A DNA stretch of 64,000 bases. Origin: a virus. Lineage: Duplodnaviria; Caudoviricetes. Within the stretch, counting starts at the first letter, position 1, and each line of letters opens with the position of its first letter. Shown here piece after piece: positions 12,216 through 16,901 of this stretch. The position numbers were made by a program, and so were the translations under genes. The notes beneath the pieces were generated by a model. The model searched no databases. It saw only the letters and a program-made list of their open reading frames with translations, and had not been told where the DNA came from. The stretch lies in IMG/VR virus record IMGVR_UViG_2597489997_000001, positions 1 through 64,000 of that record; one strand, 5' to 3'.

Positions 12216-13697
12216 TTATACCTTTGACTCCATGATTAATGTACGAAGAACAATATAAAGCATCAGACTGGTACGGAGCGAAGTGATCTTAATCTCGGTC
12301 TTAATACCTGTCATTGCTTTAACAATCTCATCGCCTTCAGCTCTCAGTTTGAGAAGTAACGCGTTTGAGGATTTGCTCGACGTATAAGCACCACGTATTT
12401 TAAAGAACACGTGTTTAACATCCTGGTGCTTGATTCCATTTGCACTTATATATTCAAACAAGTGCGTAGTTACGTCATCAACAAACTCACGATACTTATC
12501 GCCCTTAGCATGTGCATACTGGGCTGGGAAATCCTTAAGGATTGATTCCAACTTATCTGCATCAGTTCGGGGGATTGCTTTGGCTGCATAAGTTGCAAGT
12601 TCCTGTTTAAAGAAACTGTTCTTATCGTTCAGAACGTTTGCAATATAGTTCTTAAACCGGTTAGCAGATTTCTGAACATCCTTGATATTCAGTTCACCAT
12701 CCAGTAAAGCCAAGCCTGAGTCTGTCTCAACGAGATCAACGGAATCTTTAATCTCATAAAGCACTTTGGTGTAATCGTTAATAACACCTTTAAGACGGGA
12801 CTCCATATCGTTCACCATGTAAACGATTTTCTTGTCATTATCCATCTTAGCAAAGGCATCAAAGTGAATACCCGTACGAGGGTCGATAATAAACTCACCA
12901 CGAGCACGGAATAGATCATTCCATGAACCATAGCGCTTGATATCAAACTTCAAGGAGAGCTTGTTATAGGCCGTTATAGCGACGTTCTGTTTTACCAGAT
13001 AGCCGAAGTAGTGGTTCATGATAGACGTCATGACACGGTAGTGGAATAACATGACCAGATTGATCAATGCTTCGTTCTTCATATTGCTAGGAAGATTGGA
13101 ATTCCACACACGGTTCATTAGGTAGATAATAGACAGGTTGAAAGCTTCAGAAGAAACTTTAAAGTCTTTATTGATCCACTTGGTCTTGATCAGTTCATCA
13201 CGGAGTCTTACTTCATCCACGTCGATAATGTCGCGGAAGAAAGTAACACGGTCAGATGTTTTAAAGAGTACACGATGAGTCCCCAGATAAGGAGAGCCAA
13301 AGAACTCAGTATGATCATTGTCTTTAGTTGCGAAACCATAGACATAACGACGAAGAGTCTGTACCCAGCGAGGAGTAATCTCTAAATCTTCAACCAGGTT
13401 ATCAAAGATATCCTTAACTGCGTTGTCGCGGTTATAGTTGAAGTTGGCCGGTAGAGCTTCTAGCCCAGACCAGTATTCGGGGATATTCGCAGCGGATTCA
13501 AATCCACTAACCCAGCCTGGAGGAATTGCAGGAGCAAAGAAGTCAGTTAAAGGCTTACCCTCTAAACCAGCTAATAGCTCACGCATCTCAACGTCGGACA
13601 TGGCACGTTCGTATTTCTCTTCATCCGTTAACTCAAGGAATCGATACTTTACTAATCCGCCCATGTGACTTTTAAAACGATCAGTAGCAGCAGACAT
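12216..13697 (-). CDS. Conserved phiKZ-like hypothetical protein
   Basis: 493 aa ORF, translationally coupled on both sides. Confidence 0.7.
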   Translation of the reverse strand: MSAATDRFKSHMGGLVKYRFLELTDEEKYERAMSDVEMRELLAGLEGKPLTDFFAPAIPPGWVSGFESAANIPEYWSGLEALPANFNYNRDNAVKDIFDNLVEDLEITPRWVQTLRRYVYGFATKDNDHTEFFGSPYLGTHRVLFKTSDRVTFFRDIIDVDEVRLRDELIKTKWINKDFKVSSEAFNLSIIYLMNRVWNSNLPSNMKNEALINLVMLFHYRVMTSIMNHYFGYLVKQNVAITAYNKLSLKFDIKRYGSWNDLFRARGEFIIDPRTGIHFDAFAKMDNDKKIVYMVNDMESRLKGVINDYTKVLYEIKDSVDLVETDSGLALLDGELNIKDVQKSANRFKNYIANVLNDKNSFFKQELATYAAKAIPRTDADKLESILKDFPAQYAHAKGDKYREFVDDVTTHLFEYISANGIKHQDVKHVFFKIRGAYTSSKSSNALLLKLRAEGDEIVKAMTGIKTEIKITSLRTSLMLYIVLRTLIMESKV

Positions 13698-14545
13698 TAT
13701 CTTTTCCTCGGAACAGAGTACTTGATTTGGTCAGACTTGCCTTTAGGATCAGCGTACTGGAGACGTTTCTTAATTTCGTTCTCATAGAAGTCTTTAAACT
13801 CTCTGTGAGCATCAGCATAACCTTGGATATCATCCTGAAGGTCATCGACGGTTACACCGAAACGAGAAACGGCTTCTTGCATCCCACGGCGACAGTTCTT
13901 ATAGATATAAGTTTTGACACCAAGCTCTACAAGCTCAGCAAACTTATCATACATCTTCGGTGGAATTACAGAGAAGTGGTCGTCATAGGACAATACCACT
14001 TTGGCAATCATGTTAAAGAGAGCAGAGCCAGCATCACGAATGAGGAAGGAGTTATTCCCCGTCATGGTGAATGTAGTAAAGGTACGTTGAACGTTACCAT
14101 CATCAAGACCGTTGATCAGACGACCTAATGCGTTGTTCATTTGACCTACACCGCAGGTTGCATAGTTGCTGAAGTTATTACCGTTAGCAATAGCTCTGTT
14201 AATGTTTCCAGGGTACACTTCGATAACCTGGAGAATACGTCTACCACCTGTTAAGAAATCAGGTACGTTGACGTGGATAATCCCACCTTGGAGATTCTCA
14301 ATGTTTGCACTACTAAGATCAATGATCTCTGTAGTACCACCTGCTACGTTCAGCAGAGGAGCAACCATCTTCAGAATAACCTTCTCTCTTATACCTTGTT
14401 CAATAGAGAACTCAGTATTGACAGGTCCCCAAATACCACCATAACCGTTGTTCGGATTATCGAAGGCTAACTTGAGTAAATAGTCAGAGATATCGGTAGG
14501 ACCATTAATGACGTATTCAATAGAAAAGTCTACTGGGTTTGACAT
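13697..14545 (-). CDS. Conserved hypothetical (possibly virion) protein
   Basis: 282 aa, AAGGA SD. Confidence 0.7.
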   Translation of the reverse strand: MSNPVDFSIEYVINGPTDISDYLLKLAFDNPNNGYGGIWGPVNTEFSIEQGIREKVILKMVAPLLNVAGGTTEIIDLSSANIENLQGGIIHVNVPDFLTGGRRILQVIEVYPGNINRAIANGNNFSNYATCGVGQMNNALGRLINGLDDGNVQRTFTTFTMTGNNSFLIRDAGSALFNMIAKVVLSYDDHFSVIPPKMYDKFAELVELGVKTYIYKNCRRGMQEAVSRFGVTVDDLQDDIQGYADAHREFKDFYENEIKKRLQYADPKGKSDQIKYSVPRKR

Positions 14546-14591
14546 AATTAGTCCTTCATTTTTGTAAGCTTACAAAATATCCAAAGACAAT

Positions 14592-14627
14592 CAAAAACCC
14601 CTACCCCACCCAAAGGCGAGATAGGGG
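14592..14627 (-). terminator. Intrinsic terminator ending the RNA island transcript
   Basis: Minus strand CCCCTATCTCGCC-TTTG-GGTGGGGTAGGGG followed by TTTTT. Confidence 0.8.
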
Positions 14628-14641
14628 CAGAGGTAGTGTCA

Positions 14642-15250
14642 TTGCATACACCCTAGGGCAGACTCGATGGACTATATAGGAGCTACCCATAAATCCGACC
14701 AAATCTACCAAAGGCTGTCTACATTGATGTCAACAACTTCTCCCAGGCATGGGAGCAGACCGTTTGTAGCCTGCATCGTATAATGCCTTATACTGTCAGG
14801 TATGCTACGCTGTTTAGTCCCGTTAGTCTTTCGGGGAGTCGCTCACGGTTAAGGCGCGACTAGACATGACGGCTTCACTAATGCTGGAGACATTATCGTG
14901 AAGACCCGTTTCGTCTGCAATTTATATCCCCGTCAGACTCGTCAGATGTTCCGGGCGTTCTCTCCCACCAGAGAGTAGGTCGAGTGAAACGATGTCGCGA
15001 GGTCAACTGTAAGTTGCCGATTAATCCATCAAGTCTTTGACAAGGGATATTAAATTCGCTTTCGTTCGAATCACTCTGTTTGTTAGGGAAGCTAACCAAA
15101 GTTACTTTAACTACGGTCTGTGGATAACCTAGGGTTAAAAGATAAGTTTGACGGCTAGCTCCCTAATGGATTGCACCATCCTGTTCACTACGCTTCGAGT
15201 ACTCGGGTATGAGATATTATTACTCAGCTTGAGATCGACAGGTGATGCAA
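14642..15250 (-). ncRNA. Candidate large structured ncRNA (about 610 nt)
   Basis: No credible ORF; terminal helix 14642-14652 with 15241-15250, nested long-range helices, terminator 15 nt downstream. Confidence 0.7.
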
Positions 15251-15260
15251 AGGAAGAAGG

Positions 15261-15580
15261 TCCCGATTAGATCGTTACCTAAAAAGGGTGCGCGGGCTTG
15301 TCAGTAGGCGGCGCATACGCCACCAGTACCGGACCCGCAGCTATAGTCGCCATGCTGGCGACACCCACCAGGAACTACTACTGCGACAGGACTATGGCCT
15401 GAGTTCATTCCTGGATTTACGACCGGGAGGGTAAACCCCCGGTATTTGCCTTCCCATCGGCCACACCAGCCACGGAAGGTCTTACAATCCCAGCATGTCA
15501 ACTGGCACACCCCTCTTAACCCACATCGCTATCCGCAGGGAGTTAAGCAAGACATACACTTCTCGACATACAATCGGGAT
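15261..15580 (-). ncRNA. Candidate GC-rich structured ncRNA (about 320 nt)
   Basis: Terminal helix TCCCGATT/AATCGGGA, many strong internal hairpins, no credible ORF. Confidence 0.65.
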
Positions 15581-15584
15581 ATTG

Positions 15585-15995
15585 TCATTTCACCAGATCG
15601 TACTTAGTATCCATCTCGGCACGTTTGCTATTGCTTACGTATTCCTCAAAGGTACATTTATACCAGTCACCCTCACCGATTTCCCGGCTATAGAAGATAA
15701 CTGCTGGGTCGTAAGCTTTCTTAGAAGGCTTATCCACAGGACGGTGAAACACTTGTAATGTATGACCCAATTCTGATATCAGATAGGCTTCATGATCATT
15801 ACAGATAAACGTTGGCTGTACACCATGTCCGTGTTCCACCACAATAATGGTGTTCTTCGGCATGTCGGCATACTTACCACCGTACTCACCCATATTAGTC
15901 AAACGGTTAATCACCGAGTTATGAGTAATATGGAAGAATTTTTCCCGGTTGGCTATTTCGCCAGTTGGGTTGCTTGAAACAAGCTTCAATAACAT
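15585..15995 (-). CDS. Hypothetical protein
   Basis: 136 aa with GAGG SD. Confidence 0.7.
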   Translation of the reverse strand: MLLKLVSSNPTGEIANREKFFHITHNSVINRLTNMGEYGGKYADMPKNTIIVVEHGHGVQPTFICNDHEAYLISELGHTLQVFHRPVDKPSKKAYDPAVIFYSREIGEGDWYKCTFEEYVSNSKRAEMDTKYDLVK

Positions 15996-16039: not shown

Positions 16040-16116
16040 TGGTGGCCCCGGCGTGACTTGAACACGCGACCAAGCGATTATGAGTCACCTGCTCTAACCG
16101 TCTGAGCTACGGGGCC
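16040..16116 (-). tRNA. tRNA-Ile2 (CAU, lysidine type)
   Basis: Cloverleaf GGCCCCG..GACTCATAATCG..GGGGCCACCA, closely resembling enterobacterial tRNA-Ile2 rather than tRNA-Met; encoded CCA. Confidence 0.9.
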
Positions 16117-16120
16117 GGAA

Positions 16121-16196
16121 TGGCGCGCCCTACAGGATTCGAACCTGTGACCAATAGCTTAGAAGGCTACTGCTCTATCCACTGAGCTAAGAGCGC
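16121..16196 (-). tRNA. tRNA-Arg (UCU)
   Basis: Cloverleaf, anticodon loop CTTCTAA, GGTTCGAATCC T arm, CCA. Confidence 0.95.
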
Positions 16197-16204
16197 CGAA
16201 TTAC

Positions 16205-16471
16205 TTATTCTGCTACCTTAGCCAGATTTGCTTTATGGGAAGCCACTACAGGAACTAAACCCTGGAACCCATGCTTGTTGTACTGACCGTCAACGAAGAT
16301 CTGAGGAACAGTTTGAACTTTCTCTCCACACATCTCGCTGAGTTTAGCACCATCAATACCAGCTTCCACGATATTGACATATTCGTGAGTGATGCCTTCA
16401 ACACCTTCAACCAGTGCTTTAGCGCGATCACACCATGGACAATTAGGCTTACCATAAATTACAACATTCAT
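16205..16471 (-). CDS. grx: Glutaredoxin
   Basis: CPWC active site and TVPQIFVDG motif. Confidence 0.9.
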   Translation of the reverse strand: MNVVIYGKPNCPWCDRAKALVEGVEGITHEYVNIVEAGIDGAKLSEMCGEKVQTVPQIFVDGQYNKHGFQGLVPVVASHKANLAKVAE

Positions 16472-16701
16472 TTTGGGATTCCGTTTAAAGGAGAATGATA
16501 GAACATACCTCTGGATGGCATATTCAATATACCTGCTGGTTTCGTTGCAAACACGTTGTAGGGTTTACTTTCGCGGATACCTACCTCTAACGTTAATCTG
16601 GCAATCAGTGGATTAAAGAAACTAAAACCAGTAACTGTTAAATGTGGTTGCTCAGAAACATATTTAAAATCATTGGGAACAAAACCTTCTGGCACTTCCA
16701 T
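16468..16701 (-). CDS. Hypothetical protein
   Basis: 77 aa, AAGGA SD, ATGA overlap with grx. Confidence 0.6.
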   Translation of the reverse strand: MEVPEGFVPNDFKYVSEQPHLTVTGFSFFNPLIARLTLEVGIRESKPYNVFATKPAGILNMPSRGMFYHSPLNGIPK

Positions 16702-16732
16702 AATGATTCCTTAGAAGCAGTGGTCATAAATA

Positions 16733-16821
16733 TGGCAGAGAGTATGGGATTCGAACCCATGAGCCCCGAAGGACTGCCTCCTTAGCAGGGAGGTGACTTA
16801 AACCAACTCATCCAACTCTCT
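16733..16821 (-). tRNA. tRNA-Ser (GCU)
   Basis: Long variable arm, anticodon loop CTGCTAA, G73, CCA. Confidence 0.95.
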
Positions 16822-16825
16822 AATG

Positions 16826-16901
16826 TGGCGCTCGTGACAGGGCTCGAACCTGTGACATACGGATTAACAGTCCGCCGTTCTACCGACTGAACTACACGAG
16901 C
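16826..16901 (-). tRNA. tRNA-Asn (GUU)
   Basis: Anticodon arm GCGGA-CTGTTAA-TCCGT, G73, CCA. Confidence 0.95.

What the first reader, a model, noticed from the sequence alone, without database searches (positions are those of the whole stretch)
15261..15580. Second GC-rich structured RNA of about 320 nt with probable pseudoknots
Seen: begins a few nt after the stop of ORF 15585-15995 and is closed by TCCCGATT 15261-15268 / AATCGGGA 15572-15579. Internal stems include GGGTGCGC/GCACACCC, GGCGGCG-CATA-CGCCACC, GTCGCCA-TGC-TGGCGAC, CCAGGAA/TTCCTGG, ACCGGGAGGGT-AAAC-CCCCGGT, CCTTCC/GGAAGG and CTTAAC/GTTAAG. Alternative or crossing pairs: CATGCTGG 15351-15358 / CCAGCATG 15490-15497 and CTATAGTC 15341-15348 / GACTATGG 15390-15397. 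Only a 10-nt linker separates it from the 610-nt RNA. It lacks RNase P, tmRNA and SRP signatures. Inference: a separate processed ncRNA, switch or ribozyme.
Basis: partly seen in the sequence, partly recalled or inferred. Interest (0 to 1): 0.78.

Follow-up and report, generated by a model that had tools for sequence, protein, structure and literature searches.

The report
Conserved folded RNA in jumbo phage
This gene-free stretch of a giant phage encodes an intricately folded RNA that related phages keep, that matches no catalogued RNA family, and that sits behind the phage's tRNA genes, where a self-cutting hammerhead ribozyme further downstream probably trims it; its job is unknown.

Summary
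The flagged 320 nt are real structured RNA, read from the window's minus strand. They form the 5' domain ("domain A", about 15568-15286) of a 1-kb ORF-free unit. That unit lies between a tRNA cluster plus ORF136 and a DUF7484 virion gene, in a phiKZ-related (Chimalliviridae-type) jumbo phage.

- **Fold:** a covariance model of the core hits 13 of 13 clade sequences. On that alignment 90.1% of cells pair, against 74.5% in shuffles (0/500), and 23 of 32 pairs show compensatory changes.
five of the nested stems are confirmed and three further helices (Pg, Pj, Pk) were found. The closing helix and one GC hairpin occur only in this window and cannot be tested. One long-range stem is displaced by Pk. 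Comparison does not support the two "crossing" pairings.
- **Known families:** Rfam gives nothing but tRNAs. GOLLD, ROOL, RNase P, tmRNA and intron models do not match.
- **Downstream ribozyme:** about 350 nt downstream, outside the flagged span, all 13 sequences carry a canonical type I hammerhead with a covarying loop II pseudoknot. The predicted cut is at 14868|14867. A terminator follows at 14628-14597.

Best reading: domain A belongs to a roughly 0.7-kb tRNA-operon-linked ncRNA whose 3' end the hammerhead makes. It is a new family analogous to GOLLD/ROOL. No expression data were found and the function is unknown.

The parts
15286..15568 (-). Domain A: the comparatively supported fold, from helix Pa through the 3' strand of closing helix Pk. 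This is the real content of the finding.
   Evidence: nhmmer profile hit at 15581-15121 (225.6 bits). The core model R1 hits 15334-15488 at 118.1 bits. Covariation is shown; helix coordinates come.
15497..15567 (-). 5' hairpin arm: Pa (15563-15567 / 15497-15501), Pb (15551-15557 / 15505-15511) and Pc (15542-15547 / 15515-15520).
   Evidence: RNAalifold on 9 sequences finds compensatory changes in all three helices. The AH04-group rows (2 of 9) do not fit Pa or Pb in that alignment.
15478..15485 (-). Invariant junction motif GUAAGACC, whose last two bases open helix Pd.
   Evidence: Invariant in 13 of 13 sequences.
15449..15479 (-).
   Evidence: helix 1: 8 pairs, 6 with changes on both sides, 94.1% of cells paired.
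15422..15443 (-).
   Evidence: helices 2 and 3: 6 pairs, all 6 with changes on both sides.
15368..15414 (-). It encloses the conserved GUGAAC, hairpin Pg (15398-15402 / 15387-15390) and a conserved purine-rich strand. The invariant UGGUGG follows it.
   Evidence: helix 4 (7 pairs, 4 compensatory) and helix 5 (5 pairs, 3 compensatory).
15286..15366 (-). Pj encloses a window-specific GC hairpin (15307-15324) where relatives carry a subdomain of about 125 nt.
   Evidence: Pi is helix 6 (6 pairs, 4 compensatory). Pj and Pk are supported (94.4% paired; slid controls 57% or less). The relatives' subdomain motifs are absent from this genome's locus.
15261..15268 (-).
   Evidence: Present as 8 perfect pairs and predicted in the MFE fold. 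Reading the relatives' alignment shows no counterpart, so covariation can neither support nor refute it.
14960..15285 (-). Poorly conserved linker, followed by three accessory hairpins next to the hammerhead.
   Evidence: blastn finds no similarity to relatives for RNA positions of about 138-630. The conserved hairpins upstream of the ribozyme are seen in the alignment.
14856..14959 (-). Type I hammerhead ribozyme. The core runs 14945-14908, the loop II / 5'-flank pseudoknot pairs 14952-14955 with 14929-14932, and the predicted cut lies between 14868 and 14867.
   Evidence: The core is present in 13 of 13 sequences. Model R2 scores 77.4 bits here. Counting gives 89.5% of cells paired against 76.2% shuffled (0/500), with the pseudoknot helix 97.4% paired and 4 of 6 of its pairs compensatory. 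Rfam Hammerhead_1 gives only 16.6 bits against a threshold of 34.
14629..14867 (-). Second conserved RNA, the 3' product of hammerhead cleavage. It belongs to the neighbouring finding.
   Evidence: An nhmmer profile finds it in 10 of 13 clade sequences; 9 score 166-209 bits and L039, whose contig ends inside it, scores 37.3. pEt-SU, Survivor and SXP01 lack it.
14597..14628 (-). Intrinsic terminator hairpin followed by a U-run. It ends the non-coding unit about 50 nt before the DUF7484 start codon.
   Evidence: 14 pairs, 8 of them G-C, then TTTTGATTGT. RNAfold gives -23.9 kcal/mol, and homologous hairpins occur in relatives.
15585..15995 (-). ORF136, of unknown function, lying between tRNA-Met and the RNA.
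   Evidence: Listed. It has no Pfam family and only a weak PHROG hit (E 0.0088).
16040..16901 (-). Upstream tRNA cluster on the same strand: Asn, Ser, Arg and Met.
   Evidence: These are the only four tRNAs in the 285-kb genome.

Best explanation
The flagged stretch is the conserved 5' structured domain (domain A, window 15568-15286, minus strand) of a phage-encoded non-coding RNA. It lies directly downstream of the phage's tRNA cluster and ORF136.

The RNA is probably made by read-through transcription from that cluster, because no terminator is called upstream of it. About 430 nt past the end of domain A, a type I hammerhead ribozyme cuts the transcript at 14868|14867. The 5' product would be about 0.7 kb: domain A, a variable linker, accessory hairpins and the ribozyme, ending in a 2',3'-cyclic phosphate. 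In relatives where tRNA-Met abuts domain A, tRNA 3' processing would set the 5' end.

Domain A is a multi-helix fold. It has a 5' hairpin arm, hairpins Pd and Pe, the Pf/Pg junction, and a Pk-closed junction whose interior differs between lineages. Invariant single-stranded junction motifs join these helices. This is the pattern of an RNA that works through its tertiary structure, as an RNA-only or protein-bound particle acting in trans. It resembles GOLLD and ROOL in setting and scale but is not related to them.

Shown by computation:
- the fold
- the coding strand
- conservation across the clade
- the ribozyme motif
- the terminator
- synteny

Inferred: transcription, cleavage in vivo, stability of the product, and action in trans. 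The function itself is unknown.
For: **Synteny.** An ORF-poor gap of 0.76-1.6 kb lies upstream of the DUF7484 gene in the window and the 10 Enterobacterales/Shewanella-type relatives or uncultured contigs examined.

**Fold.**
- RNAalifold on 9 sequences predicts 61 pairs, 33 of them with compensatory changes.
- Model R1 hits 13 of 13 clade sequences at 75.9-154.9 bits.
- On the R1 alignment 90.1% of cells pair, against 74.5% in shuffles (0/500). 23 of 32 pairs change on both sides. Slid controls give 38.6-55.4%.
- Pj and Pk pair in 94.4% of cells, with slid controls at 57% or less. Further compensated variants appear.

**Strand.** 42 G-U cells give 90.1% pairing on the minus strand against 81.8% on the plus strand. 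All flanking genes and tRNAs are also on the minus strand.

**Not coding.**
- The 69-aa ORF inside the region has no PHROG family.
- The antisense CDS annotated in N1M2 is not kept in Sureiya, which is 89.7% identical in this region.

**Hammerhead.**
- The core is invariant in 13 of 13 sequences.
- Stems I-III and the loop II pseudoknot covary.
- R2 scores 75-101 bits in all 13.
- This is the pseudoknotted class described by Perreault et al. 2011 (PMC3088659, passages read).

**Link between ribozyme and upstream RNA.** In pEt-SU, Survivor and SXP01 the cleavage site is followed after 18-22 nt by the terminator-type hairpin, with no downstream RNA, yet domain A and the hammerhead are both kept.

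**Unit boundaries.** The terminator lies at 14628-14597.

**tRNA context.** tRNA-Met immediately abuts domain A in N1M2, Sureiya and L039. GOLLD and ROOL are phage RNAs "often near tRNA islands", and GOLLD env-38 lies downstream of a Met-tRNA (PMC12286853, passages read).
Against: - There is no expression evidence at all for this phage or any relative.
- The linker between domain A and the ribozyme (about 15285-15030) is not conserved in sequence. Domain A could therefore be a separate RNA, or could be separated by host RNases.
- A U-run follows Pk in the window, and a weaker U-rich tract follows it in many relatives (read). This could end a shorter species.
- tRNA linkage is not universal. 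No tRNA was found in the fetched upstream flanks of 5 of 13 sequences (AH04, IMG5, IMG6, L015, L020), though those flanks are only 0.5-2.6 kb.
- The window's domain lacks the ~125-nt 3' subdomain that most relatives conserve. IMG5 and L020 carry yet another insert. Part of the RNA is therefore dispensable or lineage-specific.
- The simple terminator scan did not call the hairpins of pEt-SU, Survivor or SXP01 (0 of 3), because their U-tracts are short.
- The alignment behind one search was fitted to the model's structure, which favours that structure.
- The analogy with GOLLD and ROOL rests on context and size only.
Confidence: 0.6

Rival explanations
1. One reading: domain A is a separate, discrete RNA of about 300 nt. 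It would be ended at or just after helix Pk, by weak termination at the following U-run or by host RNase cuts in the unconserved linker. The hammerhead would then serve only the downstream RNA.
For: - Domain A is a self-contained, closed fold. The single-sequence MFE reproduces Pb-Pk and adds a closing helix.
- The linker after it is unconserved.
- CACCC followed by UUUUU comes after Pj/Pk in the window, and U-rich tracts follow Pk in many relatives.
- In 10 of 13 sequences the hammerhead is followed by a second conserved RNA that it would release.
Against: - The scan calls no terminator on the minus strand between 15584 and 14628.
- Three lineages keep domain A and the hammerhead without any downstream RNA.
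- The closing helix that defines the 320-nt boundaries is not conserved.
Confidence: 0.2
2. A cis-acting processing or insulation cassette with no function in trans. Here a structured 3' region stabilises or punctuates the tRNA, glutaredoxin and ORF transcripts and separates them from the virion-gene unit. The hammerhead would merely cut the transcript.
For: - The cassette always lies between an upstream gene or tRNA and the DUF7484 virion operon.
- The terminator lies immediately before the virion gene.
- Hammerheads between genes of phage and prophage operons are documented (PMC3088659).
Against: - Simple stabilisers do not need about 280 nt of multi-junction fold with invariant single-stranded motifs kept across four genera.
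- The upstream neighbour varies between phages (tRNA-Met, ORF136, ORF122, glutaredoxin, a 201-aa ORF), while the RNA stays constant.
Confidence: 0.13
3. A decayed mobile element, such as a remnant of a group I or II intron or a homing-endonuclease cassette, or a stretch that encodes a small protein.
For: - Aeromonas phage pAEv1810 carries an HNH endonuclease gene in the syntenic gap.
- A 69-aa ORF (15301-15510, minus strand) lies inside the finding.
Against: - No intron family matches at E up to 10 in the window, N1M2 or Survivor.
- The ORF has no PHROG family, and ORFs in the gap differ between relatives.
- Substitutions are compensatory in helices, which is not the pattern of coding sequence or of decay.
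Confidence: 0.04
4. A DNA-level element, such as a replication origin or packaging site near the terminase gene, whose inverted repeats only look like RNA stems.
For: The locus lies within a few kb of the terminase gene in relatives.
Against: - 42 G-U cells are tolerated on one strand only, giving 90.1% against 81.8% pairing.
- A strand-specific hammerhead core lies in the same unit.
- Helices covary while their sequences drift, which protein-binding DNA repeats would not do.
Confidence: 0.03

Closest known systems
GOLLD RNA (Rfam RF01998)
   Same: It is a large, multi-domain RNA of unknown function encoded by phages and prophages, often near tRNA islands. GOLLD env-38 lies downstream of a Met-tRNA, and GOLLD has conserved and variable halves (PMC12286853, passages read). 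Here too the RNA follows tRNA-Met, directly in 3 of 13 sequences, and it has a constant core with lineage-specific subdomains.
   Different: The GOLLD model does not match even at E up to 10. The conserved part here is at the 5' end. A hammerhead is built into the unit. The hosts are phiKZ-related jumbo phages of Gram-negative bacteria. Oligomerisation has not been tested.
ROOL RNA (Rfam RF03087)
   Same: It is a phage and prophage RNA of roughly 0.6 kb near tRNA islands, with a complex fold, no known protein partner and no known function (PMC12286853).
   Different: The Rfam model does not match (same calls as for GOLLD), there is no sequence similarity, and the processing differs.
Type I hammerhead ribozymes with a stem I / loop II pseudoknot (Rfam RF00163; Perreault et al. 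2011, PMC3088659)
   Same: The ribozyme downstream of the finding has the full catalytic core, a GUC cleavage triplet, an open stem I, covarying stems, and a covarying pseudoknot between loop II and the 5' flank. Phage intergenic settings are described in that paper.
   Different: This describes the neighbouring processing element, not the flagged 320 nt. It scores below Rfam's threshold (16.6 against 34 bits) because stem III is a long bulged hairpin and loop II is large. Cleavage has not been tested.
Stable RNAs of the phage T4 tRNA gene cluster (species 1 and 2)
   Same: These are non-tRNA structured RNAs of unknown function, co-transcribed and processed with phage tRNAs. This comparison is recalled from memory and was not checked in any call.
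   Different: As recalled, the T4 RNAs are much smaller (about 120-140 nt), are processed by host RNases, and have no known ribozyme attached. No sequence comparison was made here.

Membership tests
GOLLD (RF01998) | A match to the family covariance model at or above the gathering score | tested here: not met
   The model produced no match at the gathering threshold in the window or in 11 relatives' loci. It also produced none at E up to 10 in the window, N1M2 or Survivor gaps.
GOLLD (RF01998) | Encoded by a phage or prophage near tRNA genes | tested here: met
   The tRNA cluster lies at 16040-16901 on the same strand. tRNA-Met abuts the RNA in N1M2, Sureiya and L039. This is context only and does not define membership by itself.
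ROOL (RF03087) | A match to the family covariance model | tested here: not met
   No match appeared.
GOLLD / ROOL | Homo-oligomeric nanocage assembly | not testable with these tools
   This needs native gels, SEC-MALS or cryo-EM of the transcript.
Hammerhead ribozyme, type I (RF00163), for the element at 14959-14856 and not for the flagged span | Catalytic core CUGAnGA...GAAA with an A15.1-U16.1 pair and a non-G residue at the cleavage site | tested here: met
   The core is invariant in 13 of 13 sequences and the cleavage triplet is GUC.
Hammerhead ribozyme, type I (RF00163) | Three helices around the core with stem I open, supported by covariation | tested here: met
   One search gives 89.5% of cells paired against 76.2% shuffled (0/500). 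15 of 26 pairs change on both sides, and the pseudoknot helix is 97.4% paired.
Hammerhead ribozyme, type I (RF00163) | Reaches the Rfam gathering score | tested here: not met
   Hammerhead_1 scores 16.6 bits against a threshold of 34. Hammerhead_3 scores 15.5 against 48.5 in Survivor.
Hammerhead ribozyme, type I (RF00163) | Self-cleavage activity | not testable with these tools
   This needs an in vitro transcription and cleavage assay.
Bacterial RNase P RNA (RF00010 / RF00011) | A match to the covariance model, including the P4 pseudoknot and conserved regions CR-I to CR-V | tested here: not met
   No match appeared at E up to 10. A resemblance recalled for two motifs in the relatives' 3' subdomain was only a lead. 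That subdomain is absent from the window, and the proposed P4-like pairing did not covary when the alignment was read.
Group I / group II introns (RF00028, RF00029) | A match to the covariance model | tested here: not met
   No match appeared at E up to 10.
tmRNA | A tRNA-like domain plus a tag reading frame | tested here: not met
   ARAGORN finds 4 tRNAs and no tmRNA in the window.

The most novel reading that the evidence does not exclude
Domain A is the core of a previously undescribed class of large (about 0.7 kb) ornate RNA. The class would be specific to one clade of Chimalliviridae (nucleus-forming-type jumbo phages). The RNA would be carved out of the tRNA operon by tRNA processing at its 5' end and by its own hammerhead at its 3' end, and would act in trans as an RNA machine or scaffold. 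One possibility is that it forms higher-order assemblies as GOLLD and ROOL do. Another is that it engages tRNAs: its invariant single-stranded UGGUGG is complementary to the CCACCA 3' end of the co-encoded tRNA-Met. That complementarity is an untested inference from reading the sequence.
Probability: 0.2. Interest if true: 0.8.

Novelty: new variant of a known kind. Interest (0 to 1): 0.62.

Why it matters
Large, intricately folded RNAs of phages such as GOLLD and ROOL are among the least understood RNAs in biology. Only a handful of classes are known, and their recently solved cage-like structures have not revealed a function.

This element adds an unrelated family with the same genomic habit, next to phage tRNA genes. 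It occurs in cultured, genetically approachable jumbo phages of Klebsiella, Kosakonia, Erwinia, Pantoea, Serratia, Edwardsiella and Shewanella. Its built-in hammerhead gives a precise, testable 3' end.

The family has a constant core and swappable peripheral subdomains, with three versions seen in the region enclosed by helix Pk. That gives natural variants for working out which parts matter.

It also corrects annotation. At least one deposited CDS (N1M2_252) overlaps the RNA on the opposite strand and is probably spurious.

Tried and rejected
- **RNA runs:** no RNA holder was listed for the 1039-nt stretch. The 5 holders are DNA or unknown and hold a share of 0.20 or less.
- **Earlier notes of this scan:** look-ups by place and by sequence found nothing for this genome or for IMG6.
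- **Literature:** four searches found no description of this RNA. The searches were jumbo phage + structured RNA, hammerhead + jumbo phage (2 irrelevant papers), GOLLD/ROOL and phiKZ ncRNA.
  - PMC10690425 has no occurrence of hammerhead, jumbo, GOLLD, ROOL or phiKZ.
  - The phiKZ Grad-seq paper reports two ncRNA candidates, the first about 100 nt and from a different locus (PMC8545117, passages read).
- **Wider homology:**
  - nhmmer profiles found nothing in the Aeromonas phage loci L013 and L014.
  - R1 found nothing significant in the whole records of pAEv1810 and D6 (best E 0.34).
  - R1 found nothing in phiKp_32, EL, RisingSun or phiKT1028 (0 of 4).
- **Loose three-motif DNA pattern:**
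  - It gave 68 viral stretches. R1 confirmed only 3, all already known, plus one marginal hit of 15.8 bits.
  - It gave more than 120 bacterial stretches. 80 were scored and 0 were confirmed. Those pattern matches are chance.
- **Hammerhead pattern in metagenomes:** 21 stretches, of which 2 belong to the clade.
- **RNase P lead:** rejected; see the membership test.
- **Alternative pairing of the Pa 3' strand with the Pi 5' strand:** duplexes of -17 to -28 kcal/mol form in 5 of 11 sequences. The pairing is not kept in Kc263, Survivor, SXP01 or the AH04 group.
- **Loop-to-5'-region pseudoknot:** 1 of 11 sequences reached 5% or better.
- **Automatic column-pair helix search on a MAFFT alignment:** too noisy to use.
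- **Terminator scan in pEt-SU, Survivor and SXP01:** it called none of the homologous hairpins.
- **The D6 motif resembling a hammerhead core:** R2 did not recognise it.
Full report
**Setting.** The window is the first 64 kb of a 284,757-bp virus record. The finding lies in a 1039-nt stretch, 14546-15584, that has no ORF of note. All neighbouring genes run on the minus strand.
- Upstream lie four tRNAs (Asn, Ser, Arg and Met, at 16040-16901), a glutaredoxin gene and ORF136 (15585-15995).
- Downstream lie a DUF7484 gene (13697-14545), a 493-aa ORF and a thymidylate kinase.
- The DUF7484 protein matches 183 phage records. The closest matches, at 75-84% identity, are Klebsiella phage N1M2, Shewanella phage SXP01, Serratia phages Sureiya and Yubaba, Kosakonia phage Kc263, Pantoea phage Survivor, Edwardsiella phage pEt-SU and Erwinia phage AH04. 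Distant matches include EL and RisingSun.
- The genera of four of these relatives (Nimduovirus, Petsuvirus, Branisovskavirus and Meadowvirus) are listed under Chimalliviridae.

**The observation.** On its own the sequence is not compelling.
- MFE z-scores are -2.99 on the minus strand and -2.79 on the plus strand.
- The two perfect 8-bp stems are matched or exceeded in 31 of 200 dinucleotide shuffles.
- Rfam finds only the four tRNAs at gathering thresholds. At E up to 10 it finds only a 16.6-bit Hammerhead_1 hit and a microRNA chance hit, both outside the flagged span.

**Comparison with relatives.**
- The window and ten relatives examined (Kc263, N1M2, Sureiya, SXP01, Survivor, pEt-SU, AH04, Aeromonas phage D6 and two uncultured contigs) have a gap of 0.76-1.6 kb upstream of the DUF7484 gene with no conserved ORF.
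- blastn links the window's flagged span only to Kc263 (RNA positions 5-137, 77%) and weakly to pEt-SU.
- A multiple alignment nevertheless shows clear homology, with invariant motifs (GUAAGACC, AAAUCC, GUGAAC, UGGUGG) separated by helices whose sequences differ.
- RNAalifold on nine sequences predicts 61 pairs, 33 of them with compensatory changes.
- A hammerhead-pattern scan added L015, L020 and L039, giving 13 distinct sequences.
- I built a covariance model of the core (R1: 173 positions, 32 pairs). It hits all 13, with the window at 118.1 bits over 15334-15488 on the minus strand.
- On the resulting alignment 90.1% of cells pair, against 74.5% in shuffles (0/500). 23 of 32 pairs change on both sides, and sliding the partners drops pairing to 38.6-55.4%. 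That alignment is fitted to the model, which favours the model's structure. The slid controls and the independent MAFFT/RNAalifold result argue that the signal is real.
- Strand: 42 G-U cells make the minus strand 90.1% paired against 81.8% for the plus strand.

**Anatomy of domain A in the window**.
- A 5' hairpin arm of Pa, Pb and Pc spans 15567-15497.
- The junction motif GUAAGACC comes next.
- Hairpin Pd spans 15479-15449 and hairpin Pe spans 15443-15422.
- Helix Pf (15414-15408 with 15374-15368) follows the AAAUCC motif and encloses GUGAAC and hairpin Pg.
- UGGUGG comes after Pf.
- Helix Pk (15366-15362 with 15290-15286) then closes a junction that holds hairpin Pi (15362-15346) and helix Pj (15339-15334 with 15296-15291).

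Pj and Pk covary in relatives. Examples for Pk are GGGUG/UACCC, GGAUG/CAUCC, GGGCG/CGCCC and GGGCA/UGCCC. Examples for Pj are CAACG/CGUUG, CAGCG/CGCUG and UAGC/GCUA.

The contents of Pj differ between lineages.
- Most relatives enclose a conserved subdomain of about 125 nt.
- IMG5 and L020 have a third arrangement inside Pk.

The relatives' subdomain motifs are absent from the window's locus, and the window's genome holds only one copy of the family. The core is therefore constant and the interior of Pk is a variable expansion.

- Five nested stems are confirmed (Pc, Pd, Pe, Pf, Pi).
- The closing helix (15261-15268 with 15572-15579) and the GGCGGCG hairpin are specific to this window and cannot be tested.
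- GGGTGCGC/GCACACCC competes with Pk, which covaries.
- The two crossing pairings are not conserved. The 15351-15358/15490-15497 pairing would have to open Pi, and a loop-complementarity test reached 5% or better in 1 of 11 sequences.

**The rest of the unit.** Reading outside the flagged span changed the picture.
- All 13 sequences carry CUGAnGAG, then stem II, then GACGAAAC, then a long stem III, then CCGUC. This is a type I hammerhead.
- Model R2 scores 75-101 bits in all 13, and 20-35 bits in six unrelated metagenomic hammerheads.
- With the loop II / 5'-flank pseudoknot added, 89.5% of cells pair against 76.2% in shuffles (0/500). The pseudoknot helix is 97.4% paired with 4 of 6 pairs compensated, and stem I has 4 of 4 pairs compensated.
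- This is the pseudoknotted architecture described by Perreault et al. (PMC3088659; passages read).
- In the window the cut would fall between 14868 and 14867, checked against the sequence.
- An intrinsic terminator lies at 14628-14597, 50 nt before the virion gene's start codon.
- No terminator is called between the tRNAs and that point.
- Between the cut and the terminator lies a second RNA of about 240 nt, conserved in 10 of 13 sequences.
- pEt-SU, Survivor and SXP01 lack that second RNA. In them the conserved hairpin starts 18-22 nt after the cut, although the simple scan does not call it a terminator. These three lineages keep domain A together with the hammerhead. This is the main reason I tie the ribozyme to the 3' end of the upstream RNA.

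**Context and distribution.**
- tRNA-Met abuts domain A in N1M2, Sureiya and L039.
- One ORF lies between a tRNA and the RNA in the window and in Kc263, pEt-SU, Survivor and SXP01.
- No tRNA was found in the short fetched flanks of the AH04 group.
- The family was not found outside the clade. It was absent from Aeromonas phages pAEv1810 and D6, from phiKp_32, EL, RisingSun and phiKT1028, and from pattern-selected viral and bacterial contigs.
- phiKp_32 does carry an R2-type hammerhead in a gene-free gap of its own.

**Comparison with what is known.**
- GOLLD and ROOL are the nearest kind. They are large phage RNAs near tRNA islands, and one GOLLD lies behind a Met-tRNA (PMC12286853; passages read). 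Their models do not match, so this is an analogue and not a member.
- Earlier notes of this scan describe hammerhead-linked structured RNAs in other phages. I used them only as a pointer to the ribozyme subtype, which I then tested here.
- My four literature searches found no description of this RNA. Supplementary files were not examined.

**Verdict.** This is a real, conserved, structured non-coding RNA domain of a new family. It is most likely the 5' part of a roughly 0.7-kb tRNA-operon-linked RNA that ends at its own hammerhead. Expression, the ends of the RNA and its function all remain to be shown.

Noticed in passing
window 14856-14959 (minus strand): A canonical type I hammerhead ribozyme with a loop II / 5'-flank pseudoknot, conserved in 13 of 13 clade sequences. 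It scores below Rfam's threshold (16.6 bits), and the predicted cut lies between 14868 and 14867.
   Followed up: yes
window 14629-14867 (minus strand): A second conserved RNA of about 240 nt lies between the hammerhead cut and the terminator. An nhmmer profile finds it in 10 of 13 clade sequences, and it contains a hairpin with a conserved loop and a covarying stem. It is missing in pEt-SU, Survivor and SXP01.
   Followed up: partly
L241 (Klebsiella phage phiKp_32, LC768500.1) 1261-2249: A different jumbo-phage lineage has a hammerhead of the same subtype (R2: 43.3 bits, E 2.6e-10, at 1509-1591) inside an unannotated gap of about 990 nt. That gap has no tRNA and no domain A, which suggests that hammerhead-plus-RNA cassettes recur in these phages.
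   Followed up: partly
L002 (Klebsiella phage N1M2) 3373-3885: The annotated CDS N1M2_252 lies antisense to domain A. It is not kept in Sureiya, which is 89.7% identical in nucleotide sequence here, so it is probably a spurious call.
   Followed up: partly
L005 about 2148-2270 and L020 about 860-1000: Two uncultured relatives replace the Pi/Pj interior of helix Pk with unrelated hairpins. This is a third version of the variable subdomain.
   Followed up: partly
L013 (Aeromonas phage pAEv1810) 1384-2436: The syntenic gap upstream of the DUF7484 gene holds an HNH homing-endonuclease gene on the opposite strand, and no domain A.
   Followed up: no
window 14585-14625 and G000:C1:109663-109703: The terminator hairpin of this unit has an 85%-identical 41-nt copy elsewhere in the phage genome. 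This is probably a shared terminator type.
   Followed up: no
L014 (Aeromonas phage D6) about 886-1935: D6 also has a long gene-poor stretch behind its tRNAs, with a CUGAUGA...CGAAA motif. Neither R1 nor R2 recognises it, so any relation remains unresolved.
   Followed up: partly
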